The notes under the pieces are model-generated. The model did not search any database, was not told the origin of the DNA, and worked only from the letters and a program-made list of their open reading frames with translations. Below, one piece after another: positions 8,915-23,589 of a DNA stretch of 64,000 nt. Origin of the DNA: Eubacteriales bacterium (lineage in GTDB: Bacteria > Bacillota > Clostridia > Oscillospirales > QAMX01). The position numbers and the translations under genes are program-made. Positions within the stretch are counted from its first letter, which is position 1. Each line of letters opens with the position of its first letter. The DNA lies in contig JAZUCL010000011.1 in the NCBI GenBank assembly GCA_045639125.1, forward strand, positions 58,720 through 122,719, given 5' to 3'.

Positions 8915-8984
8915 ATTGCTTTACCTCCTTATTTTTGTAAAGAATAGCGAGAGCATTATGCTTCTCGCTTACTCTCTCATTATA

Positions 8985-9077
8985 TTATTCTCCACTATTG
9001 TCATCTTTTGACACAAAAACATACATAAAAGCAGTCGTAAAAAGTGCGCCAAACATCATTGCTAATATATGACCCAC
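8985..9077 (-). CDS. Small membrane protein (30 aa)
   Basis: GTG start after AGGAG: MGHILAMMFGALFTTAFMYVFVSKDDNSGE. Confidence 0.45.
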   Translation of the reverse strand: MGHILAMMFGALFTTAFMYVFVSKDDNSGE

Positions 9078-11403: not shown

Positions 11404-12072
11404 CTATTGACAATTTTTACCCCACTGCTCTGCCATAGCCTTTGCAATGCCCGGAAATGTTTTACTTGCGTCTTTTGCATTATGAGCAACACCTCTGCTT
11501 CCACCTTTCCCCCTAGCGAACCCACCTGTATTACTTGGTAGGTATGGTTTGTATTCATCTACAATTTTTGTTGGCTTCAGTGGTAATAAACCCTTTTGCC
11601 ATAATAAAGTGCGTTTTGAAAAAGGGTGCCCATATTCAAATGGTTGCACCACCTGACTTTCTTTCGGCAATCCAACGCATTTTAATGGGGTAGGATTTTC
11701 TACGCATATTCTTTCGCAATCAGCATTTAAAAACTTCATAAAAAATTCTTTTGCTTCCAATGCCTTCTTTAATCTATTCTCATCAATATTACCAGCCGTT
11801 GGATACATAAATCTTGCACCAGCCTTGCTCATATATGTACATGGTGGATGTGCAATAAGCAAATCCCATTTCCCATCAATAGTATGTTCAGCACCGTCAG
11901 ATGTTTTAAACTTGCAATTACCATTTATTAAAGGTAGTACATCTCCTTGTATGTGCCATTCTGGATGTCCACCAGAACATTCAAGAATATCACAAGAATA
12001 TGCTTCCCAACCTATTTCTCTAAAAGCCTTACATACTGTTTGGCTCTCTTCACATGCTACTAATAACTTCAT
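11404..12072 (-). CDS. Short phage C5-cytosine DNA methyltransferase-like protein
   Basis: LVACEES (motif I-like), HPPCT (catalytic PC), VENP (motif VI), KRT.LW, SKTFPGIAKAMAEQW. Confidence 0.8.
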   Translation of the reverse strand: MKLLVACEESQTVCKAFREIGWEAYSCDILECSGGHPEWHIQGDVLPLINGNCKFKTSDGAEHTIDGKWDLLIAHPPCTYMSKAGARFMYPTAGNIDENRLKKALEAKEFFMKFLNADCERICVENPTPLKCVGLPKESQVVQPFEYGHPFSKRTLLWQKGLLPLKPTKIVDEYKPYLPSNTGGFARGKGGSRGVAHNAKDASKTFPGIAKAMAEQWGKNCQ

Positions 12073-12197
12073 TACTACATAGGAGAAATGTACATTTAAC
12101 GGAATTCCAACTCGTTCCTCCTATTCTTTTGTAGGTGTTTGCAACCACCTAATTATTTTTATTTTTCTCCTTAAAAGCGTGGTTTTCATTGGCATTT

Positions 12198-12434
12198 TTA
12201 GTCGCAAATCACAAGCAAAGTGCCACTTCCCATAGCACCATTGCTTCGGGTCGAAATGGTTGGTGCCGCATCATTCACTTCTGTATCTATACAAACAACT
12301 TTTAATCCATTTCTTTTGCTTCTTAATGTAGGAACATAATTTTTGTAATATCTAATACCATCAAATCCTTGCGTATCATCAATACAAATAGCTATTCCAC
12401 CACAAGCAGAGTTTAATCTACTTGTGGATTGATA
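12198..12434 (-). CDS. -1 frameshift extension of the multispecific C5 MTase (78 aa, two TRD-like modules)
   Basis: Open -1 frame that begins exactly at the slippery heptamer: YQSTSRLNSACGGIAICIDDTQGFDGIRYYKNYVPTLRSKRNGLKVVCIDTEVNDAAPTISTRSNGAMGSGTLLVICD. Confidence 0.7.
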   Translation of the reverse strand, partial: YQSTSRLNSACGGIAICIDDTQGFDGIRYYKNYVPTLRSKRNGLKVVCIDTEVNDAAPTISTRSNGAMGSGTLLVICD

Positions 12435-14023
12435 AAATTTTCATCACGGCATACATATGTATCATCATACTGAGCTTTATATAGATGTTCAGCTAACAAT
12501 TCACAACAGTCCGTAATAATACCATTACCTGCTTGTTTATATAAATGAGTATCTACTACACCTATATTTCTGGCTTTATCGCAATCTTCAAATGTCAGCC
12601 CCATCAGTTTATAACATTCACGAGGAGTCAGTTTTCTAATTCTGAGGTCTTCACGGATACAATTTTTAATTGCAGATGTCAATAATGCATTACTCAACCC
12701 ATCTTTGCGAGTCTTAAATTGGTCTTCTCTTTTTGCACCATGTTTGTTATAGTTTCTGTCTTTGGGTCTTATTTGACCAGATTCAACAATCTTTGGCATA
12801 CGATTACCACCACTGCAAGTATCCAAAGTTGGAGACAAACACTCACTATTGTATACTCTACCGGCTTGAGGATTCGGTTCTCTTTCTGTTCCGTAAATCT
12901 GTCCAACTTGTTCCAAAACAGCAGTGCCCTCAGCCTTTCGATTTGATACGCCCCTATCTTCTCTTGAAGTTATGCAATTTGCATACTCAATCATTCGAGT
13001 ATCATTTACAGATTTATCAATACCAGATATGATTTTTACTGGGTCTTTATAGTCAGTCGCTCTTAAACCTTGTGATAGATCTTCAGCATCAAGAACTCTC
13101 ACTCTGTCCTGTACATTTTTATCTGGGTTTAATGAACCAGCTACCTTTATATCCGTTCCTTTGCTCTCTGAAAATAACTTAAATTTTCTTGTTGCAATAT
13201 CACTCAGGTAATACTTTTCGTCAACTACATCTTCAAGAATATCTTTTAGTCTTATGCCAGTATCAAAAGGAATGGGGAATGTGTATTTACCAGTATCAAT
13301 ATCTTTTCTAATAGAAATTACAAACACTCTTTCCCTATTTTGAGGAACACCACAATCTTTGCCATTGATTATAGACCAATACGAATTAAAACCGAGTTCA
13401 TCCAATACTTCAATAAGATTGTTGAAATATTCAGCGAATTTTTTGCTTGCAAGATTCTTTACATTTTCAAACATTATGTATTTTGGGAGAGTGTTATTTT
13501 CCTTTGCTTTCTTCAATAACTTGATATTCTCCCACAGCAAACTGCTTCTTGTACCACTATCGGGAGACAAGCCTTTCATTTTGCCCGCAACGGAAATATC
13601 AGTACAAGGGAATGAACAAGTCCAAAAGTCAGCATAAGGCAATTCTTCCATTCTGCTAATATCACCTAAATTTTTAGTTAGCTTACAAGCCAACCAATAT
13701 TTCTCAATGTCGTTAGTCTTTCTTTTTGCCAACTTAAACCAATCAAAATGCTTGTCTTTTTCTGGCTCATATCCCAAGTTAATATCTGTGAGATACTGTG
13801 CCATTTCATCTCTTGTAGGATAATTCTCATATGCTTCCACCATCTCATTGGTGAGACCACAATGTATTGCAGCATATGAAAGCACAGCCTCTTTGTTAAT
13901 ATCCGAAGTATTTAATACTTCAATATCAAATAAACCAGAGTTTTCAAAACCTCTTTCTTGACAACCTATACCAGAAAATAGTATATTGGCTGTCAGTTTT
14001 ACTTTTTCAACATTTGTATTCAA
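12413..14023 (-). CDS. Multispecific phage C5-cytosine DNA methyltransferase
   Basis: LFSGIG, SFPCTD, FENVKNL, PQNRERVF, RKLTPREC, YKQAGN motifs; long variable region with about four TRD-like repeats. Confidence 0.93.
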   Translation of the reverse strand: MNTNVEKVKLTANILFSGIGCQERGFENSGLFDIEVLNTSDINKEAVLSYAAIHCGLTNEMVEAYENYPTRDEMAQYLTDINLGYEPEKDKHFDWFKLAKRKTNDIEKYWLACKLTKNLGDISRMEELPYADFWTCSFPCTDISVAGKMKGLSPDSGTRSSLLWENIKLLKKAKENNTLPKYIMFENVKNLASKKFAEYFNNLIEVLDELGFNSYWSIINGKDCGVPQNRERVFVISIRKDIDTGKYTFPIPFDTGIRLKDILEDVVDEKYYLSDIATRKFKLFSESKGTDIKVAGSLNPDKNVQDRVRVLDAEDLSQGLRATDYKDPVKIISGIDKSVNDTRMIEYANCITSREDRGVSNRKAEGTAVLEQVGQIYGTEREPNPQAGRVYNSECLSPTLDTCSGGNRMPKIVESGQIRPKDRNYNKHGAKREDQFKTRKDGLSNALLTSAIKNCIREDLRIRKLTPRECYKLMGLTFEDCDKARNIGVVDTHLYKQAGNGIITDCCELLAEHLYKAQYDDTYVCRDENFINPQVD

Positions 14024-14118
14024 ATTCTCTTTCGGAGTAAACTATAGTTTTATGTCCGGACAAACTTCCTTACTCCTTTCAAATTTTTATGTACACTTTA
14101 TTATTCTCTAAAAGTATT

Positions 14119-14907
14119 TTAAAAAAGTCCCCATTCTGCAAACTTTTCAAATCCACCAACAGATACAATATATTCTCTTGCTTTTTCAACAATTTCAGAA
14201 TAAGGTACACCATCAATTTCAGTATCGCCAATAGCACAACATAAACTTACTGGTCTACCGATTTCTTGTGCTTTAAGGAAAGCATAAATATTTACGGATA
14301 CATCTGCCTTTGATAAATCTTTGCCATGAAGACCGCCACCTGTTACACTATCAGCCATATCAGAGCCGAGTTTTCTGTTAGTAGCACCAGTGTCTACATT
14401 TGTACCGCCTGTCCAATAACCAAGAGGATTAATAGCAGCATTAGGACAAATCTTTCTCACATCATCTTCTTCTGCGTTGCTCTGGCAAATTATGAGATTG
14501 TCACCATTCAAGATATACTTACCATCAGTTGGGAAATCTTTGTAAATATCTCTTGCTATCTGTGCCATAACTTTCTGCTCAGATGTAAGCGGTACACCCT
14601 TAAAGATACCATTATCTCCACACTTAAACCCATTGGTCTGATTATTTGCAAGATGCACGTCTTGTTTTACGCATTTGTAGTCAACCATAATTGAGTTATC
14701 TTTTGTAATTCTGTGTACTGCTTGGCACACATCAACTGCATCAACTTCAACTGAAGATTCAGCAATGATATGGCATACACTGTGTCCAATCAGTACCTCA
14801 ACCGCAATCTTTGGATTTTCTTCCATTTTATAAGCAAGGTCTACGATAGCACCTGCTATTCTGTCGGCAACCTTATCAGGATGTGCCGGATTTACCTTTT
14901 CTATCAT
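14119..14907 (-). CDS. metK: Compact phage-type S-adenosylmethionine synthetase
   Basis: EKVNPAHPDK, GDNG, DTGATNRKL, GGGLHGKDLSKAD; 262 aa. Confidence 0.9.
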   Translation of the reverse strand: MIEKVNPAHPDKVADRIAGAIVDLAYKMEENPKIAVEVLIGHSVCHIIAESSVEVDAVDVCQAVHRITKDNSIMVDYKCVKQDVHLANNQTNGFKCGDNGIFKGVPLTSEQKVMAQIARDIYKDFPTDGKYILNGDNLIICQSNAEEDDVRKICPNAAINPLGYWTGGTNVDTGATNRKLGSDMADSVTGGGLHGKDLSKADVSVNIYAFLKAQEIGRPVSLCCAIGDTEIDGVPYSEIVEKAREYIVSVGGFEKFAEWGLF

Positions 14908-14947
14908 TAAAATTCCTCCTATTTTGTCAATAAAACGAGCGTTTCAT

Positions 14948-15100
14948 TTAGCTGTCTAAAAACTCATCTTCCAAAACTACCACGTTGCATTCGCTTGTAT
15001 GAGCGGTGCAACGGTCAATGCCAATAATACCTTCAGCAAAACAAGGTTCCCAAATAGCATCTTCATCAAACTCACTTTTGCAACGACCAAGCATTTTATG
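14948..15100 (-). pseudogene. Displaced alternative C-terminus of the metallophosphoesterase
   Basis: HKMLGRCKSEFDEDAIWEPCFAEGIIGIDRCTAHTSECNVVVLEDEFLDS* aligns by eye to the last ~50 aa of 15640..16413. Confidence 0.8.
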
Positions 15101-15647
15101 CTATAACTCCATACCGCTCAAACAAACATCTTTGAGGAGCGGATTGACCAAAATATTTAGCTTCAGCTTGTAGGCGCATTTTAATCGCATCTTCTTTATC
15201 AACAAATATACCCAAATATTTTACTTTATCATCAACACATATTTGAGCAATCCACTTGTGTTTTGTATTGCTAAAATAAACGCCTGTAACACCAGAAGTG
15301 TTAGTTGATATAACGCCATTTCGATTTAAAATGTTTTGTTTCTTGGTAGCATTTCGTAAATTTCCTTTACGATTATCCAATTTATTACGATTGATATGGT
15401 CTACTAACTCATATTTGAAATCTGTAATAAATCTATGCATATATATCCACTTATCATCGGGAGTTTTTATTTTCATATATCCATTACTAAAATCTTTATA
15501 CCAACAATATTCTCTAATCTTATCGTAATCCTCTAAATCAAAATAAAACTCTTCACTGCAATTCGAAGCAATACCAATGCCGAAATTCTCGCTTAATTTA
15601 TATGTGTTATATTTCTTACGCACATTTAATGCTTTATCTTTAATCAT
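15096..15647 (-). CDS. HNH homing endonuclease with AP2-like DNA-binding domain
   Basis: MHRFI, VDHINRNKLDNRKGNLR, NTSGVTGV, W.AQI...YLG.F motifs. Confidence 0.92.
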   Translation of the reverse strand: MIKDKALNVRKKYNTYKLSENFGIGIASNCSEEFYFDLEDYDKIREYCWYKDFSNGYMKIKTPDDKWIYMHRFITDFKYELVDHINRNKLDNRKGNLRNATKKQNILNRNGVISTNTSGVTGVYFSNTKHKWIAQICVDDKVKYLGIFVDKEDAIKMRLQAEAKYFGQSAPQRCLFERYGVIA

Positions 15648-16413
15648 TTATAAAATTATCCTCTAATACTAAAATATTCACTTTGCCAGTATATGCGGTA
15701 CAAGCATCTACTCCAATATAATCTTTTCCATAGTAAATATCAAATTTAGCATCCTCTCCAAATTCAGAAATGCCTTGGTGCTGACTATAAGCATAGCTGG
15801 TATGAAAATGACCGAACACTATCGTTTTGCCTGTTTTGTTTAAGCCTTTCGATGCTATTTCAAATGGATTTCCCCACATTGCTTCATCCCATTCTTTTTC
15901 TGTTACGTTTCGCCAATCAGGATTAAAGTGATATTCTCTGTCTCTTGTGTAATATTTTGGATAATCGTCTTCTGCTGTTATGGGTATCCAACTGTGTACA
16001 AAGATATATTTTTTAGTTTCAAAGTAATTTACTAATAACTCCCTATATTTTGCTAACCTATCCCAAGTCATACAACAACATTCAGCAAAACTTCTTCTAT
16101 AGACCACACCTCCAAGGTCTTCGATTGTCTTAACAGTGCCGTTGGAAACATCGTGAGAATACGGAAATTCTCTCATACAACATTCTTCAAGTAAACTATC
16201 GTGATTGCCTTTTACGAGTATTTTTCTTTCAAGAGACATAAGAAGGTGTAATACCTCTTCGCTTTCGTTCCCGCGATCAAAACAATCGCCACAAACAATC
16301 AACCAATGTTCTTCGTTATTTGGGTCAAACCCAACTTCGTCAAGTGCTTTCTTCAATGGTGTATAAAAACTATGTATATCCGAAGTTACAAAAAATTTAG
16401 GTATCTTAATCAC
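15640..16413 (-). CDS. Calcineurin-like metallophosphoesterase
   Basis: SDIH, GDCFDRG, GNHD, FVH, GHFH motifs. Confidence 0.9.
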   Translation of the reverse strand: MIKIPKFFVTSDIHSFYTPLKKALDEVGFDPNNEEHWLIVCGDCFDRGNESEEVLHLLMSLERKILVKGNHDSLLEECCMREFPYSHDVSNGTVKTIEDLGGVVYRRSFAECCCMTWDRLAKYRELLVNYFETKKYIFVHSWIPITAEDDYPKYYTRDREYHFNPDWRNVTEKEWDEAMWGNPFEIASKGLNKTGKTIVFGHFHTSYAYSQHQGISEFGEDAKFDIYYGKDYIGVDACTAYTGKVNILVLEDNFIND

Positions 16414-16488
16414 CCCTTTTCACTTTAAAACTCAAATTCTATCGTGATTTTTAGGCTCCGAAACGCCCTATTTAAGCCATTCTTGAAA

Positions 16489-17334
16489 TCAATAATTTGT
16501 AATTAAAACCTCAATATCTTTACTTCGGTCAATTTTATGATAATTACAATTTACATAATCTCCATTTAAATAATGAATATGGTACTTGTCCTTCCACCTA
16601 TCCAAAAACGGATTGTCATATTTCAGATTGTTAGACAACGCCCATCTTGTGCCTTGTGCGTCTAACTTATCCAACAACTCAAGTAATTTCTTTTCGTGTT
16701 CTTCTGTCCAACCTTCAAATCCTCGTTTACCATCGTTGTAGTTACCAACTGATGCAAAATAAGGTGGGTCAAAATACAACAAATCATTTTCGTCAAAGTC
16801 AGAGTAATCAATATCAGTAAAACTTTTTGATGAGAAAACAATATCCGTACTTATATTTTTCTTCATTGCATATAAGTCTTCTCTCTGCCTATCCGAAAAA
16901 TAACTTCTGTTTTTACCAAAACTACTATTGTATTGGTGATTATTGTTGAATCTAAACTGATGATTAAATGAATGGCACATCAATGTATAAAGAGTAGTCC
17001 AATCATTCTTCCCCGCATTATAGTCATCACGAAGTTTTTCAAATCCTTCTTTGTTAGTTTTACTAAGTGAATACTCGGCGATTATATTTTCTATTTTCTT
17101 AACAACTGCATTTGTATCTTCTGTTGCAAGCCCTTCAAAGATGCTTGATACATAAGGATTTATGTCGTTATATAGATAATGTTCTGCTTTGGTATTTATT
17201 AAGACTGTTCCTGAACCACCAAATACATCAACAAACATGCTGATTTTATCCGGGAATAAAGGAATTATCTGTCCTATAAGCTTATACTTGTTTCCTATAT
17301 AATTTATAGGCGATTTTATGTATTTATTTTTCAA
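16489..17334 (-). CDS. Dam-family (alpha class) N6-adenine DNA methyltransferase
   Basis: YIGNK, DVFGGSG, DPPY and E.LITNY motifs. Confidence 0.92.
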   Translation of the reverse strand: MKNKYIKSPINYIGNKYKLIGQIIPLFPDKISMFVDVFGGSGTVLINTKAEHYLYNDINPYVSSIFEGLATEDTNAVVKKIENIIAEYSLSKTNKEGFEKLRDDYNAGKNDWTTLYTLMCHSFNHQFRFNNNHQYNSSFGKNRSYFSDRQREDLYAMKKNISTDIVFSSKSFTDIDYSDFDENDLLYFDPPYFASVGNYNDGKRGFEGWTEEHEKKLLELLDKLDAQGTRWALSNNLKYDNPFLDRWKDKYHIHYLNGDYVNCNYHKIDRSKDIEVLITNY

Positions 17335-17460
17335 TGTATCTTAGGAGTAAACACTGTGTTTTCGGTATACCAAACCTCTACTCCTTTCATTTAATATGAC
17401 ATTTGCAACTGCCACACTATATTATTCTCCATAAATTTCTCGATAAAAGAGAAATTCTAT

Positions 17461-17730
17461 CTATATTTCAAACATGTCCCCAAACATCTTCATAACACCA
17501 GTAACTTCTGGTGTTCCCTTTTCGTGCAAAGGACATCTTTCAAACATCTTACCTTCGGGAATTTCTTTTCCTTGTTTACACTCCATCTTTTTGATTCCGT
17601 CTGTACTACAATGTTTGCAAGTCAGACAACTTTTCAAGTTGTAGTTTTTGTTACAAGTTTCTTCATGCTTCAATACATCTTCTTCGATTCCTGTAAAATC
17701 ACAATATTCACATCTGTATATCGGTTTCAT
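17461..17730 (-). CDS. Zn-finger phage protein
   Basis: YRCEYC...HE..C and CLTCKHC. Confidence 0.65.
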   Translation of the reverse strand: MKPIYRCEYCDFTGIEEDVLKHEETCNKNYNLKSCLTCKHCSTDGIKKMECKQGKEIPEGKMFERCPLHEKGTPEVTGVMKMFGDMFEI

Positions 17731-21044: not shown

Positions 21045-21800
21045 TTAATTAAGTCTTTGTGTTGTAATTTTAATAGCATTTTCGTTGACATCGCATCTGA
21101 GGTAGTTTCTGCCAAGTTCCTTCGCAACAACACAACTTGTCCCGCTACCGCAAAAGAAATCTGCAACAAGTCCACTTTTAGGGCAACTACTGTCTATTAT
21201 CTTATATAAGAGTTCCTTTGGCTTTTGAGTTGCGTAACCCACCCTCTCGGTTTTATCATTCTGTCCAAGTATATTAATTTTCCACACATCATCCATAATC
21301 TTACCTCGACTGTCATAATACTTTTCTTTCTCATAACCTCTTGGTGCTGTCGGAGAATATGCTTGTCTTATGTACTGACTATCTTCATTAAAATAATAGT
21401 CATCTGTTTTACTATATCGGAATATGGTATCGTGGCGTTTGCCAAAATCTTTCTTCTTGCGGGGGGCGGAATTATACCACCATATGATTTCGTTTCTAAA
21501 ATTATCGTATCCAAAAATGTTATCTAAACAGATTTTAATATAGTGAGATAAATTGTAATCACATTGAATATAAATTAACCCAGTATCTTTAAGGACTCTA
21601 AACATCTCTGAAAGTCTTGGTTTATACCATTCTAACGCTTCTTGTGGTGTCCCTAAATTATCGTTGTAATCTTTGAATTTTTTACCAGTGTTGTATAATA
21701 TATCGCAATATATCAAATCAACACTTTTATTTGGAAGTCTTTTCAAAAGTGTTAAGTTATCTTCGCAAAACAATTTATTTATATATTCTATTTGATTCAC
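21045..21800 (-). CDS. Beta-class N4/N6 DNA methyltransferase
   Basis: N-terminal motif IV variant DILY, TQKP, and C-terminal motif I DFFCGSGT. Confidence 0.88.
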   Translation of the reverse strand: MNQIEYINKLFCEDNLTLLKRLPNKSVDLIYCDILYNTGKKFKDYNDNLGTPQEALEWYKPRLSEMFRVLKDTGLIYIQCDYNLSHYIKICLDNIFGYDNFRNEIIWWYNSAPRKKKDFGKRHDTIFRYSKTDDYYFNEDSQYIRQAYSPTAPRGYEKEKYYDSRGKIMDDVWKINILGQNDKTERVGYATQKPKELLYKIIDSSCPKSGLVADFFCGSGTSCVVAKELGRNYLRCDVNENAIKITTQRLN

Positions 21801-21856
21801 CTCCTGTTATTAAGTCACCCACACTATATTATTCTCTATATATTTGCAAAAAAATA

Positions 21857-21921: not shown

Positions 21922-23589
21922 ATGAATATTCATACTATTAGAGAAAAAATGAAAATGCACTCAATATACGAAATACCTATGCGGGTTACTTTTTATGCTC
22001 GCGTTTCTTCTGAAAAAGATGAACAGCTTAATTCTTTAGATAATCAAATAGCATACTATACAGACTTAATTAAAAATAACAAGCATTGGGAATATGTGCC
22101 CGGATATATAGACGAGGGCTTATCTGGAATCTCCACCTTAAAACGAGAAAATTTTAATCATATGATATCGGATGCAAAAAACGGAATGTTTGATTTTGTG
22201 ATCACGAAGGAAATATCAAGGTTTGCACGCAACACCCTAGATAGCATCAGGTATACCCGAGAATTACTGGGTTGCGGCGTTGGCGTATTTTTTCAAAACG
22301 ACAACATCAACACTCTTGATGAAGATTCAGAACTTAGACTCTCTATTATGTCTTCCATCGCACAGGACGAGCTTAGAAAGCTATCTTCGCGTATTAAATT
22401 TGGTCATCAACAGGCGATAAAAAATCATGTTGTGCTTGGCAATAGCAGAATTTTTGGTTATGATAAAAAAGATAAAAAGTTAGTTATAAACGAAGAAGAA
22501 GCGAAAATGGTACGCGAGCTTTTTGAGTTATATGCAACTGACCAATACAGCATGAAACAAATTGAAAACATATTTTGGGAAAGAGGATATAGAAACCGAA
22601 ATGGTAATAAGATAGCTCACACCACAATGTCAAACACAATCTCTAATCCCAAATACAAAGGCTATTATGTAGGCAATAAGGTAAAGGTTGTTGATATGTT
22701 CACAAAAAAACAACACTTCCTTCCACCGGAAGAATGGGTTATGTTTAAAGATGAAACGGGCGATATAGTACCCGCTATTGTCAGCGAAGAACTCTGGAAT
22801 GCAGCTAATGTTATTTTAGAAAGGCGCAGCAACGATGTGAAAAACAAGCATAACATATGTAATCACGAAAATCTCTTGACAGGAAAATTATTTTGTACCC
22901 ATTGCGGAAATGCGTATTATCGACGCGAAAGCATGGATAAAAAGGGCAATAAAAACAGTAAGTGGATTTGTAGTGGCAAAATAAAAAACGGTGCAGAGTC
23001 CTGCCCGTCATTAGCAATTTTTGAAAATGAAATTAAACCGATTCTTTTTGATGTATTTAATGAAACCTCTCCAGTAGCCGAGGATTTGGTTGACTCCTAT
23101 ATCGAAATGTATAAAACAATCGATGCAAGCGGCGAGATAATTAAAGATATGGAAAAATTAAAATTAAAAATTGACCACGAACAAAAAAAGAAACGCAAAA
23201 TCCTTGATTATAATCTGAACGGCGATTTGTCCGATGAAGAATATATTCAGATAAACAAAGAATGTAATCATATTATCAGTGAACTTGAAAAAGATCTTTT
23301 TGATTTACAAGAACAACAAAATTCCAAAGACGATTTTAAGAAACATATTGACGAAATCAAGCAAACGCTACTTGTTGCAAAAAGAGATGCTGCGAATGGG
23401 ATCATATCAAGAGAGTTTGTAAATAAGTATATAGATAAAATTTTCGTAACTCCCGAGGATGGATCTCTTAAACTTGAAATTAAGATATTTACCGGAAAAA
23501 CTTGTGAAAAACATCTTTTAAGTCTTAGAAGTCGCTCGGGTCACATTAGTAAGAAAATGATTGAAGCCTACGAAAACGGCATGAAGTAA
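21922..23589 (+). CDS. Large serine recombinase (prophage integrase)
   Basis: YARVS catalytic motif, DEG.SG, SRFARN, recombinase domain, Zn-ribbon C..CG...C...C and coiled coil. Confidence 0.96.
   Translation: MNIHTIREKMKMHSIYEIPMRVTFYARVSSEKDEQLNSLDNQIAYYTDLIKNNKHWEYVPGYIDEGLSGISTLKRENFNHMISDAKNGMFDFVITKEISRFARNTLDSIRYTRELLGCGVGVFFQNDNINTLDEDSELRLSIMSSIAQDELRKLSSRIKFGHQQAIKNHVVLGNSRIFGYDKKDKKLVINEEEAKMVRELFELYATDQYSMKQIENIFWERGYRNRNGNKIAHTTMSNTISNPKYKGYYVGNKVKVVDMFTKKQHFLPPEEWVMFKDETGDIVPAIVSEELWNAANVILERRSNDVKNKHNICNHENLLTGKLFCTHCGNAYYRRESMDKKGNKNSKWICSGKIKNGAESCPSLAIFENEIKPILFDVFNETSPVAEDLVDSYIEMYKTIDASGEIIKDMEKLKLKIDHEQKKKRKILDYNLNGDLSDEEYIQINKECNHIISELEKDLFDLQEQQNSKDDFKKHIDEIKQTLLVAKRDAANGIISREFVNKYIDKIFVTPEDGSLKLEIKIFTGKTCEKHLLSLRSRSGHISKKMIEAYENGMK
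23551..23589 (+). other. Putative attR: 3' end of a host alpha/beta-type SASP gene fused in frame to the integrase
   Basis: KKMIEAYENGMK* matches the clostridial SASP C-terminus that follows GSVGGxMV. Confidence 0.7.

What the first reader, a model, noticed from the sequence alone, without database searches (positions are those of the whole stretch)
12073..17419. Shared leader hairpin in front of three unrelated DNA methyltransferases, each with a different palindrome at the apex
Seen on the minus strand: AUAGGAGGAA-cgagUU-GGAAUUCC-...-UUUCUCCUAU (12124-12079), GGAGUAAG-gaaGUUU-GUCCGGAC-auaAAAC-...-UUUACUCC (14076-14034) and AGGAGUAGA-gGUUU-GGUAUACC-gaAAAC-...-UUUACUCCU (17385-17343). In each, the strong SD is buried in the basal stem, a UUG at SD spacing opens a short uORF whose G begins the 8-bp palindrome, and the real start lies 9-10 nt after the anti-SD CUCC. 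Two leaders also have an upstream hairpin with the identical loop GUUGCAAA but different stems (12132-12151, 17392-17419). I saw this in front of no other gene. Inference: a cis-regulatory element specific to MTases. Options are (a) the palindromes (GAATTC, TCCGGA/CCGG, GTATAC) are cognate target sites used for autoregulation, (b) self-complementary loops drive RNA kissing or dimerisation, or (c) SAM/SAH sensing, given the adjacent phage metK.
Basis: partly seen in the sequence, partly recalled or inferred. Interest (0 to 1): 0.85.

Follow-up and report, generated by a model that had tools for sequence, protein, structure and literature searches.

The report
Twin-palindrome leader before phage DNA-modification genes
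A short, widely shared leader on the messenger RNA of prophage DNA-methylase genes hides the ribosome-binding site in a hairpin and carries two ever-changing perfect palindromes, which are not the recognition sites of the methylases behind them.

Summary
Three ~45-nt leaders (minus strand, 12079-12128, 14032-14081, 17342-17389) precede three DNA methyltransferase genes. A covariance model finds them nowhere else in the window or the 1.5-Mb genome.

They belong to a large family that Rfam 15 does not hold. I collected at least 80 distinct leaders from IMG/VR viral contigs and from prophages, mostly of Clostridia. The plan is: strong SD, then GAGGUUUG, palindrome P1, palindrome P2, then anti-SD UUUACUCC, with an SD-less start about 9 nt later.

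The family is not MTase-only. It also precedes Mom, PAPS-reductase-like, sigma-like, Xis-like and zinc-ribbon genes. One of the window's four MTases lacks it.

Option (a), cognate sites, is refuted. MTases 88% and 99% identical carry different palindromes, and one palindrome precedes several MTase families. Option (c), SAM/SAH, has no support.

Both palindromes are self-complementary through their centres. The only exceptions are 5'U·3'G wobbles. No monomer fold explains this.

Best reading: a translational SD-sequestering operator for DNA-modification genes. RNA self-pairing (option b) remains open. Mechanism is inferred, not shown.

The parts
12079..12128 (-). Leader L1. SD arm AUAGGAGGAA (12124-12115) pairs with anti-SD UUUCUCCUAU (12088-12079) and encloses P1 and P2.
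   Evidence: Sequence; fold; R1 hit 34.8 bits, E 9e-6.
12101..12108 (-). L1 palindrome P1, GGAAUUCC.
   Evidence: It occurs only once in the 189-kb contig.
12086..12097 (-). L1 palindrome P2, AAAUGUACAUUU.
12096..12110 (-). L1 mini-ORF, UUG GAA UUC CGU UAA. It starts 7 nt after GGAG.
12132..12151 (-). Upstream hairpin P0 of L1, stem AGGUG/CACCU, loop GUUGCAAA.
   Evidence: The same loop occurs with other stems in other loci.
11404..12072 (-). Small DNA methyltransferase, 222 aa, with no SD of its own.
   Evidence: No Pfam match; phrog_757 DNA methyltransferase, E 9.8e-45.
14032..14081 (-). Leader L2. GGAGUAAG pairs with UUUACUCC and encloses P1 and P2.
   Evidence: R1 hit 62.1 bits.
14054..14061 (-). 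L2 palindrome P1, GUCCGGAC.
14039..14050 (-). L2 palindrome P2, AAACUAUAGUUU.
14007..14063 (-). L2 mini-ORF from UUG, 18 codons. It overlaps the MTase start out of frame.
12413..14023 (-). C5 cytosine DNA methyltransferase, 536 aa, TTG start 10 nt after CUCC.
   Evidence: PF00145, E 8e-50; phrog_116.
17342..17389 (-). Leader L3. AGGAGUAGA pairs with UUUACUCCU and encloses P1 and P2.
   Evidence: R1 hit 49.1 bits.
17364..17371 (-). L3 palindrome P1, GGUAUACC.
17349..17361 (-). L3 palindrome P2, AAACACAGUGUUU (13 nt, one unpaired centre base).
17341..17373 (-). L3 mini-ORF from UUG (MVYRKHSVYS, then stop). It ends 6 nt before the MTase start.
17392..17419 (-). Upstream hairpin P0 of L3, loop GUUGCAAA.
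   Evidence: Compensated stems occur in L307 and L327.
16489..17334 (-). D12-class N6-adenine DNA methyltransferase, 281 aa, TTG start 9 nt after CUCC.
   Evidence: PF02086, E 8e-33.
17412..17429 (-). Promoter-like box GAGAATAATATAGTGTGG upstream of L3. It recurs at 21819-21836 (exact), and at 14091-14108 and 8975-8992 (3 mismatches each).
   Evidence: 4 matches against 0.05 expected. No transcription start was mapped.
21045..21800 (-). Fourth MTase of the window (N6_N4). It has the promoter-like box but no hairpin leader. Listed as contrast only; it is not part of the element.
   Evidence: PF01555, 167.5 bits; upstream sequence; no R1 hit.

Best explanation
The three elements belong to a conserved 5'-leader RNA family of temperate phages and prophages, mostly of Clostridia-type Bacillota. 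The leader acts in cis on translation.

Anatomy: a very strong SD (GAAAGGAG) is base-paired to an anti-SD (UUUACUCC) 35-40 nt downstream. The real start codon sits a fixed ~9 nt after that stem, in an A/U-rich spacer with no SD of its own. The gene can therefore be translated only when the stem is opened.

Most likely entry route (inferred): a ribosome catches the SD, starts at the conserved UUG 7-10 nt behind it, melts the leader and re-initiates at the nearby start. This keeps potentially harmful DNA-modification enzymes, and a few regulators, at a low or conditional level.

The two palindromes inside the stem are RNA-level self-complementary modules that evolve fast by compensatory change. 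They are not the recognition sites of the enzyme encoded downstream.

Shown here: the anatomy, its conservation, the covariation, the gene association and the mismatch with enzyme identity. Inferred: that the stem limits translation, the re-initiation route, and any trigger.
For: Family size and architecture:
- An architecture-only regular expression over all fetched loci gives 89 unique matches. In 80 of them both P1 and P2 are fully Watson-Crick or G·U self-complementary. Of the other 9, one is a member with a longer P1, two are reverse-strand echoes and six are unrelated.
- The anti-SD was not imposed. There, 40 of 131 matches had a palindromic hexamer, and 39 of those 40 also carried P2 and the anti-SD. 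The 91 non-palindromic matches were unrelated sequence.

Folding and geometry:
- The minimum-free-energy folds pair the SD with the anti-SD in 45 of 49 unique leaders, mean -13.6 kcal/mol.
- The stem pair next to the SD core covaries: U-A 56, C-G 4, plus A-U in L277 and G·U in window L1.
- The anti-SD-to-start distance is 9 nt in 44 of 62 and 10 nt in 9 of 62. The SD-to-UUG distance is 7-10 nt in 62 of 62.
- The spacer before the real start has no SD-like trinucleotide in 51 of 56 cases and is 79% A+U.

Palindromes:
- On the 85 distinct model-aligned sequences P1 pairs in 100% of cells and P2 in 95%. Every P2 departure comes from 13-nt forms forced into a 12-column register.
- 0 of 500 shuffles reach the observed pairing or covariation score.

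Genes regulated: C5, D12, N6_N4, MT-A70 and small MTases, an SNF2-MTase fusion, Mom, and PAPS-reductase-like proteins.

Precedent: the phage Mu mom modification gene is held off by a translation-inhibition stem that the Com protein relieves (PMC6483171; abstract and passages read).
Against: - No experiment and no transcript map exist. Whether the promoter-like box places the leader at the 5' end of the mRNA is unknown.
- The energies of the three window hairpins are not striking: z -1.6 to -2.9.
- RNAalifold found no consensus fold on the plain MAFFT alignment.
- Most of the SD/anti-SD stem is invariant, so only one of its pairs gives covariation.
- The mini-ORF's stop position is not conserved. 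It falls into three classes, at about -27, -9 or +30 nt relative to the real start. Two leaders have UUC in place of UUG. A single coupling geometry is therefore not supported.
- The SD stays paired in both alternative monomer folds, so nothing in the sequence shows what opens it.
- The palindrome centres are unexplained by this model.
Confidence: 0.6

Rival explanations
1. RNA self-pairing switch. Two copies of the same leader pair through P1 and/or P2, by a loop contact that matures into a 12-16 bp duplex. Translation or decay of that mRNA species then depends on its own concentration. This can be an add-on to the SD-sequestering operator rather than a replacement for it.
For: - Self-complementarity runs through the centres of both palindromes, and those central bases cannot pair within a monomer hairpin.
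- In 80 unique leaders all pair positions are Watson-Crick (P1 313, P2 465) or 5'U·3'G (7 and 15), with no mismatch. There are 19 different P1 octamers and 30 different P2.
- The central pair of P2 shows C-G, U·G and U-A states. GCCGGC, GCUGGC and GCUAGC all occur before homologous zinc-ribbon genes.
- All 7 distinct wobble-bearing P2 and the one wobble-bearing P1 put the U on the sense strand, so the pairing is kept in the RNA but not in its complement.
- The monomer P2 hairpin is in the minimum-free-energy fold of 0 of 49 leaders. Forcing it costs a median 5.6 kcal/mol.
- No second copy of the extended palindromes lies near the genes, so a partner would have to be another molecule.
- The P0 loop G-UUGCAA-A also holds a 6-nt palindrome between purines.
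Against: - Dimer formation has not been observed.
- Cofold energies favour dimers for any hairpin, so one search is not a test.
- In the predicted full dimer the SD is still paired, in trans.
- All 22 wobble cells are 5'U·3'G and none is 5'G·3'U. Pairing alone does not predict that bias; sense-strand C-to-T mutation bias could contribute.
- Some genomes carry the same P1 in two leaders, for example GTCGAC in L055 and L064 of one contig.
- A review abstract says natural functional RNA oligomers have rarely been observed (PMC7357161; search listing and abstract only).
Confidence: 0.25
2. Cognate-site autoregulation (option a). The apex palindrome in the DNA is the target of the MTase encoded downstream, which binds or methylates it to tune its own expression.
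For: - All P1 and most P2 cores are 6-bp palindromes of the kind type II systems recognise.
- GTATAC and TCCGGA are not avoided in the window (observed/expected 1.02 and 1.25), while many other palindromes are.
- Autoregulation of MTase genes through sites in their control regions is known.
Against: - The window's D12 MTase (GTATAC) and the L051 D12 MTase (AAGCTT) are 248/281 identical with no gaps.
- The N6_N4 MTases of L024 (TGCGCA) and L210 (GTGCAC) are 99% identical, and that of L045 (GTATAC) is 84% identical.
- GTATAC precedes four MTase types. TCCGGA precedes four MTase types and one Cys-rich protein of unknown function.
- The L3-type leader precedes a C5 MTase in L307. In L327 it precedes a PAPS-reductase-like gene, with GTATAC changed to GCATGC.
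- Non-MTase genes carry the leader.
- Exceptions to palindromy are wobble-only and strand-specific.
- Hexamer density in the flanking DNA is unrelated to the leader's palindrome: higher in 7 of 15 cases for P1 and 8 of 17 for P2.
Confidence: 0.04
3. DNA-level methylation sensing by other enzymes. P1 and P2 are targets of other phage or host MTases, and their methylation state sets transcription through the leader.
For: - The palindromes are of restriction-site type, and ten hexamers are used in both the P1 and P2 positions.
- The regulated genes form a DNA-modification set.
Against: - The wobble-only, sense-strand-only departures would destroy a DNA site.
- P1 extends to perfect palindromes of 12-16 nt, longer than such sites.
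- P2 differs among near-identical leaders before the same gene: GCCGGC, GCTGGC, GTCGGC and ACTGGT.
- No convincing promoter overlaps the sites.
Confidence: 0.06
4. Small-molecule riboswitch, for example for SAM or SAH (option c). The three-way junction with conserved junction bases binds a ligand that stabilises the SD/anti-SD stem.
For: - Sequence between the helices is conserved (AAGAGGUUUG and the A/U linker) while the helix tips vary.
- The SD sits in the closing helix, as in translational OFF switches.
- Most of the regulated enzymes use SAM.
Against: - No Rfam family matches, even at E up to 10.
- MetK lies near a leader in 2 of 153 loci.
- The leader also precedes Mom, sigma-like, Xis-like and zinc-ribbon genes.
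- The element is small (about 44 nt), and its helix tips are constrained in a way no riboswitch model requires.
Confidence: 0.05

Closest known systems
Phage Mu mom translation-inhibition structure relieved by Com
   Same: A phage DNA-modification gene is held off at translation by a stem that occludes its start signals, with a second short hairpin just upstream. In this family, Mom-family genes themselves carry the leader (PF25680, L282).
   Different: No Com-like activator was found. The zinc-ribbon proteins that sometimes follow the leader have no homologue in this genome. There is no sequence likeness. Mu has no pair of variable palindromes. What I know of Mu comes from the abstract and passages of PMC6483171.
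SD-sequestering translational operators and delayed-folding leaders (for example the MS2 maturation gene; recalled, not read here)
   Same: The SD is paired to a complementary stretch, and translation is possible only while the stem is open.
   Different: Here the paired SD serves a conserved UUG mini-ORF, and the real start has no SD. The family is shared by many unrelated genes. Twin palindromes lie inside the stem.
Retroviral dimerisation initiation site (kissing loop with a 6-nt palindrome)
   Same: A self-complementary hexamer sits at the tip of a hairpin and varies between lineages while staying palindromic. The P0 loop G-UUGCAA-A has the purine-flanked layout. The comparison rests on recall, plus the listing of PMC5874298 and PMC7357161.
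   Different: This is a bacterial-phage mRNA leader, not a genome-packaging signal. P1 and P2 are whole palindromes with no unpaired loop flanks. Dimerisation has not been shown.
MTase autoregulation through its own recognition site or operator in R-M systems (recalled)
   Same: A palindrome of restriction-site type lies in the control region of an MTase gene.
   Different: Near-identical enzymes carry different palindromes, and non-MTase genes carry the element. The constraint lies on the RNA strand.
T4 gene 25/38-type hairpins that bridge a distant SD to the start (recalled)
   Same: The SD lies far upstream of the start, with a folded segment between them.
   Different: In T4 the SD lies outside the hairpin and stays free. 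Here it is inside the stem.

Membership tests
Any Rfam 15 family | A covariance-model match at or above the family's gathering score. | tested here: not met
   In the window only two tRNAs reach gathering score. Over 11900-17600 at E up to 10 there are 5 weak hits, none near gathering; the best near a leader is GP20-b at 18 bits against 36.2. Seven other leader-bearing loci give one tRNA only.
SAM/SAH-type riboswitches | A match to the family model and a consistent link to SAM-cycle genes. | tested here: not met
   No Rfam match. A MetK homologue occurs in 2 of 153 leader-bearing loci. Ligand binding cannot be tested with these tools.
MTase autoregulation by cognate site | The site in the control region equals the recognition sequence of the encoded enzyme. 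| tested here: not met
   Tested by proxy only, because no specificity data are available. Enzymes 88% and 99% identical carry different palindromes, and one palindrome precedes several enzyme families.
SD-sequestering translational operator | The SD is base-paired to a cis anti-SD in a conserved helix. | tested here: met
   The SD pairs with the anti-SD in 45 of 49 minimum-free-energy folds. The anti-SD was recovered without being imposed in 39 of 40 palindrome-bearing hits. One stem pair covaries: UA 56, CG 4, plus AU and GU. This is prediction only.
SD-sequestering translational operator | Opening the helix raises translation. | not testable with these tools
   Needs reporter fusions or toeprinting.
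Mu Com/mom-type control | A dedicated small zinc-finger RNA-binding activator is encoded with the target. | tested here: inconclusive
   tblastn with the family's zinc-ribbon and Cys-rich proteins finds nothing in the 1.5-Mb genome. Mu Com itself was not used as a query.
Kissing-loop or self-duplex dimerisation element | A self-complementary core is exposed at a hairpin tip and kept palindromic through change. | tested here: met
   19 P1 octamers and 30 P2 variants occur, with no mismatches in 80 unique leaders. The central pairs covary.
Kissing-loop or self-duplex dimerisation element | The RNA forms dimers. | not testable with these tools
   Cofold energies favour dimers for any hairpin and are no test.
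T4 gene 25/38-type SD-bridging hairpin | The SD lies outside the hairpin and is single-stranded. | tested here: not met
   The SD lies in the 5' arm of the stem.

The most novel reading that the evidence does not exclude
The leader is a self-recognising mRNA switch. Each message carries its own pair of arbitrary palindromic 'addresses' (P1 and P2), through which copies of the same mRNA species pair with each other. Translation or decay of each DNA-modification gene would then be set by that mRNA's own concentration. This would be a gene-specific dosage sensor made of RNA alone, spread across many phages of gut Clostridia.
Probability: 0.2. Interest if true: 0.9.

Novelty: new variant of a known kind. 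Interest (0 to 1): 0.75.

Why it matters
Phage-borne DNA methylases and other modification enzymes decide whether a phage survives host restriction, yet little is known about how their expression is controlled. This work gives a sizeable, apparently undescribed leader family with a clear architecture and a defined set of regulated genes: at least five MTase families, Mom, PAPS-reductase-like enzymes and some regulators. It also supplies a covariance model to find more members. That makes the control of anti-restriction genes in gut Clostridia phages directly testable.

The twin palindromes are the odd part. They stay perfectly self-complementary through their centres while their sequence changes freely, and ordinary hairpin logic does not explain that. 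If they mediate RNA-RNA self-pairing, this would be a rare natural case of mRNA homodimerisation used for regulation in bacteria.

There is a practical caution too. A restriction-site-like palindrome in front of an MTase gene cannot be read as that enzyme's specificity.

Tried and rejected
- **Rfam**: nothing.
- **GenBank phages by blastn**: 33 records, none covering 80% of the region. Nearly all matches are to the metK piece, so no close annotated relative was found.
- **RNAalifold on the MAFFT alignment A3**: no consensus structure. The SD columns are out of register there. I then used a model-guided alignment, which leans towards the structure I gave it.
- **Internal sigma-70 promoter** (TTG plus the first palindrome bases as -35, TTTACT as -10, 17-nt spacing; read): rejected. 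The -10 lacks the key A. Transcripts would be almost leaderless, yet two window genes start with TTG.
- **Hexamer statistics** in the window, contig and genome, and own-palindrome density in flanking DNA: no pattern either way, and low power.
- **Second copy of each extended palindrome** as an intramolecular partner: none near the genes.
- **Zinc-ribbon, Cys-rich, Xis-like and Myb-like proteins that follow some leaders, as a possible Com-like activator**: no homologue in this genome; the sigma-like queries in the same search matched other contigs (C15, C8, C2).
- **Same-class genomes**: 0 of 150 others had a model hit at E up to 0.001. Strict filters applied and only 39 candidates were scored per genome, so this means 'not found in those searched'.
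- **D12 MTase homologues L123 (93% identical) and L131 (51%)**: different, non-significant leaders. Fold z -0.32 and +0.08, and no R1 hit.
- **Dimer cofold energies**: not informative.
- **Sequencing runs**: only small shares (0.15 or less) in animal-gut runs, all kept as contigs. No starts, ends or strand could be read. Parts without cover mean nothing.
- **Open frame 12201-12410** after the C5 MTase stop: no match to PHROGs or to a related MTase.
- **Literature**: four searches found no description of this leader. Supplementary files were not consulted.

Full report
**The observation.** On the minus strand three leaders lie directly upstream of three genes.
- L1 (12079-12128) precedes a 222-aa protein. 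It has no Pfam match but belongs to phrog_757, annotated DNA methyltransferase, E 9.8e-45.
- L2 (14032-14081) precedes a 536-aa C5 MTase (PF00145).
- L3 (17342-17389) precedes a 281-aa D12 N6-adenine MTase (PF02086).

Each leader has a strong SD paired to an anti-SD ending in CUCC. Each has a UUG 7-9 nt after GGAG, whose G opens an 8-nt palindrome (GGAAUUCC, GUCCGGAC, GGUAUACC). The real start follows 9-10 nt after CUCC.

Predicted folds pair the SD with the anti-SD, but the energies are only modestly better than shuffles: z -1.88, -1.55 and -2.94. The two upstream hairpins with loop GUUGCAAA are present.

**Specificity within this genome.**
- The pattern GGAG..TTNCTCC hits only these three places plus one unrelated site.
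- A palindrome-aware scan of all 22 contigs finds the full architecture only here.
- A covariance model built later (R1) scores the three at 62.1, 49.1 and 34.8 bits. The next hit in the window scores 11.7 bits, E 1.8. Nothing more turns up in the 1.5-Mb genome. The three sequences were in the training set.
- The window holds a fourth MTase (N6_N4, 21045-21800). It shares an upstream promoter-like box, GAGAATAATATAGTGTGG, with L3 exactly and with L2 at 3 mismatches (4 matches against 0.05 expected). It has an ordinary SD and no hairpin leader. So 3 of the 4 MTases here carry the element.
- A large serine recombinase at 21922-23589 (phrog_95) suggests that the MTase cluster lies at the end of an integrated element.

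**A large family.** Rfam 15 has nothing here or in seven other leader-bearing loci.
The 43-48-nt matches share the inner plan GAGGUUUG, then a 6-nt palindrome, then C, a short linker, AAA-N6/7-UUU and ACUCC. Their apexes include GTATAC, TCCGGA, TGCGCA, GTCGAC, CTGCAG and ATGCAT.
- Two scans fixed only the 5' half and gave 131 matches. Forty had a palindromic hexamer, and 39 of those also had P2 and the anti-SD. The 91 without a palindrome were unrelated sequence.
Thirty-six are full family members. By their record titles they lie in Lachnospiraceae, Anaerotignum/Anaerotignaceae, Herbinix, Robinsoniella, Anaerovorax, Clostridium, Epulonipiscium, an Enterococcus, and several Clostridia, Eubacteriales or Bacillota MAGs. 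Two lie in MAGs labelled Bacteroidales.
- Over everything fetched, an architecture-only expression gives 89 unique matches. Eighty have both palindromes intact. Of the other nine, one is a true member with a 10-nt P1, two are reverse-strand echoes and six are unrelated.
- Records searched whole hold 2-3 leaders each.
- None of 150 other genomes of the window's own class had a hit, under limited scoring.

**What the leader precedes.** Of 35 downstream protein clusters (80% identity) in the viral loci and the window, about 24 are MTases. Twenty of these are confirmed by Pfam, PHROGs or tblastn; four are inferred from N-terminal likeness. They cover the C5, D12, N6_N4 and small types and an SNF2-MTase fusion.

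The other clusters are five proteins with repeated zinc ribbons, three PAPS-reductase-like proteins, one sigma-70-like factor, one Xis/HTH protein and one Cys-rich protein. In bacterial genomes the leader also precedes MT-A70, a Mom-family protein (PF25680, E 2e-46), sigma-like and Myb-like proteins. The element therefore marks DNA-modification genes plus some regulators, not MTases alone.

**Are the palindromes cognate sites? No.**
- The window's D12 MTase (GTATAC / CACAGTG) is 248/281 identical, without gaps, to the L051 enzyme, whose leader has AAGCTT / TGTACA.
- The N6_N4 MTases of L024 and L210 are 99% identical but sit behind TGCGCA and GTGCAC. L045, at 84% identity, sits behind GTATAC.
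- GTATAC precedes four MTase types. TCCGGA precedes four MTase types and one Cys-rich protein of unknown function.
- The L3-type leader precedes a C5 MTase in L307. In L327, a close relative of this element, the same leader has GCAUGC in place of GUAUAC, a two-sided compensatory change, and precedes a PAPS-reductase-like gene.
- Hexamer counts in the window, and the density of each leader's own hexamer in flanking DNA, show no link.

**What constrains the palindromes.**
- In the 80 unique leaders every pair position of P1 (313 Watson-Crick, 7 U·G) and of P2 (465 Watson-Crick, 15 U·G) is complementary, including the central positions. There are no mismatches.
- There are 19 P1 octamers, 30 P2 variants and 54 combinations. 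P1 never equals P2 within a leader.
- Pair counts on a plain alignment and on a model-guided one give 100% pairing for P1 and 93-95% for P2. All departures come from 13-nt P2 forms put in a 12-column register. Zero of 500 shuffles reach the observed values.
- P1's palindromy was partly imposed when I picked the rows. P2's was never imposed.
- All wobbles have U in the 5' half and G in the 3' half. The sense RNA therefore keeps its pairing while the complementary strand would not. This points to an RNA-level, or sense-strand, constraint rather than a duplex-DNA site. Sense-strand C-to-T mutation bias may add to the pattern.
- No monomer fold uses the central bases. The P2 hairpin is absent from the minimum-free-energy fold in 0 of 49 leaders, and forcing it costs a median 5.6 kcal/mol.
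- No second copy of the extended palindromes lies nearby.

**The stem and the starts.**
- The SD pairs with the anti-SD in 45 of 49 minimum-free-energy folds.
- The pair next to the SD core covaries: U-A 56, C-G 4, A-U in L277 and G·U in window L1.
- The anti-SD-to-start distance is 9 nt in 44 of 62 cases and 10 nt in 9 of 62. The SD-to-UUG distance is 7-10 nt in all 62. The stop of the UUG mini-ORF falls in three classes, and two leaders have UUC.
- The spacer lacks any SD-like triplet in 51 of 56 cases.

I infer that ribosome entry depends on the upstream SD and on transient opening of the stem, probably with re-initiation after the mini-ORF. This is not shown.

**Comparison with what is known.** The nearest functional precedent is the phage Mu mom gene. 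Its translation-inhibition stem is relieved by the zinc-finger protein Com, which binds a neighbouring hairpin (PMC6483171; abstract and passages). No Com-like partner was found here. The palindromic tips recall retroviral dimerisation sites (recalled; reviews seen only as listings). The SAM/SAH idea has no support: there is no Rfam match, MetK lies nearby in 2 of 153 loci, and many of the regulated genes are not SAM enzymes. Four literature searches found no description of this leader.

**Verdict.** This is a real, widespread and apparently undescribed cis-regulatory leader family. It most likely acts as a translational SD-sequestering operator for phage DNA-modification genes. Its twin palindromes are RNA-level features of unknown role. 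Self-pairing between mRNA copies is the boldest reading that the data do not exclude.

Noticed in passing
window 14948-16413 (minus strand): An HNH endonuclease gene (15096-15647, PF13392) follows a metallophosphoesterase gene (15640-16413). After it, a 48-aa ORF (14948-15094) repeats the phosphoesterase's C-terminus: 19/41 identical, E 4e-12. This looks like a free-standing homing endonuclease inserted with a duplicated gene end.
   Followed up: partly
window 14119-14907 (minus strand): A short MetK-like gene of 262 aa. Only the N-terminal SAM-synthetase domain scores in Pfam, and it matches phrog_1569. It is the one part of the region widely shared with deposited Streptococcus and gut phages (65-72% DNA identity).
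   Followed up: partly
window 8975-8992, 14091-14108, 17412-17429, 21819-21836 (minus strand): A shared box, GAGAATAATATAGTGTGG: two exact copies and two with 3 mismatches, against 0.05 expected. It is probably a promoter of this element. Related AGAGAATAA stretches lie upstream of many family leaders in other loci. No transcript start has been mapped.
   Followed up: partly
window 12132-12151 and 17392-17419; L051, L165, L307, L327, L358: A second motif: a hairpin with the constant loop GUUGCAAA (which holds the palindrome UUGCAA) and seven different, compensated stems. It lies 12-20 nt upstream of the SD in a minority of leaders.
   Followed up: partly
window 12201-12410 (minus strand): A 70-codon open frame with no start codon fills the gap between the C5 MTase stop and leader L1. 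It matches neither PHROGs nor a related MTase.
   Followed up: partly
window 21922-23589 (plus strand): A large serine recombinase/integrase (phrog_95, E 4.5e-110), divergent from the leaderless N6_N4 MTase. It probably marks the edge of the integrated element that carries the MTase cluster.
   Followed up: no
window 14072-14075: In one bovine-gut metatranscriptome library (X19, contigs only, depth 2.5-2.7) two contigs abut at the 5' edge of leader L2, while contigs from other runs (X1, and X20 which is probably DNA) cross that point. This comes from one study at low depth, so it is only a weak hint of a transcript end.
   Followed up: no
L012, L016, L045, L307 compared with window L3: An identical leader plus spacer precedes different genes in related phages: a 167-aa MTase, a 241-aa D12 MTase or a 266-aa N6_N4 MTase. 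The leaders therefore seem to serve as junctions where modification-gene cassettes are exchanged.
   Followed up: partly
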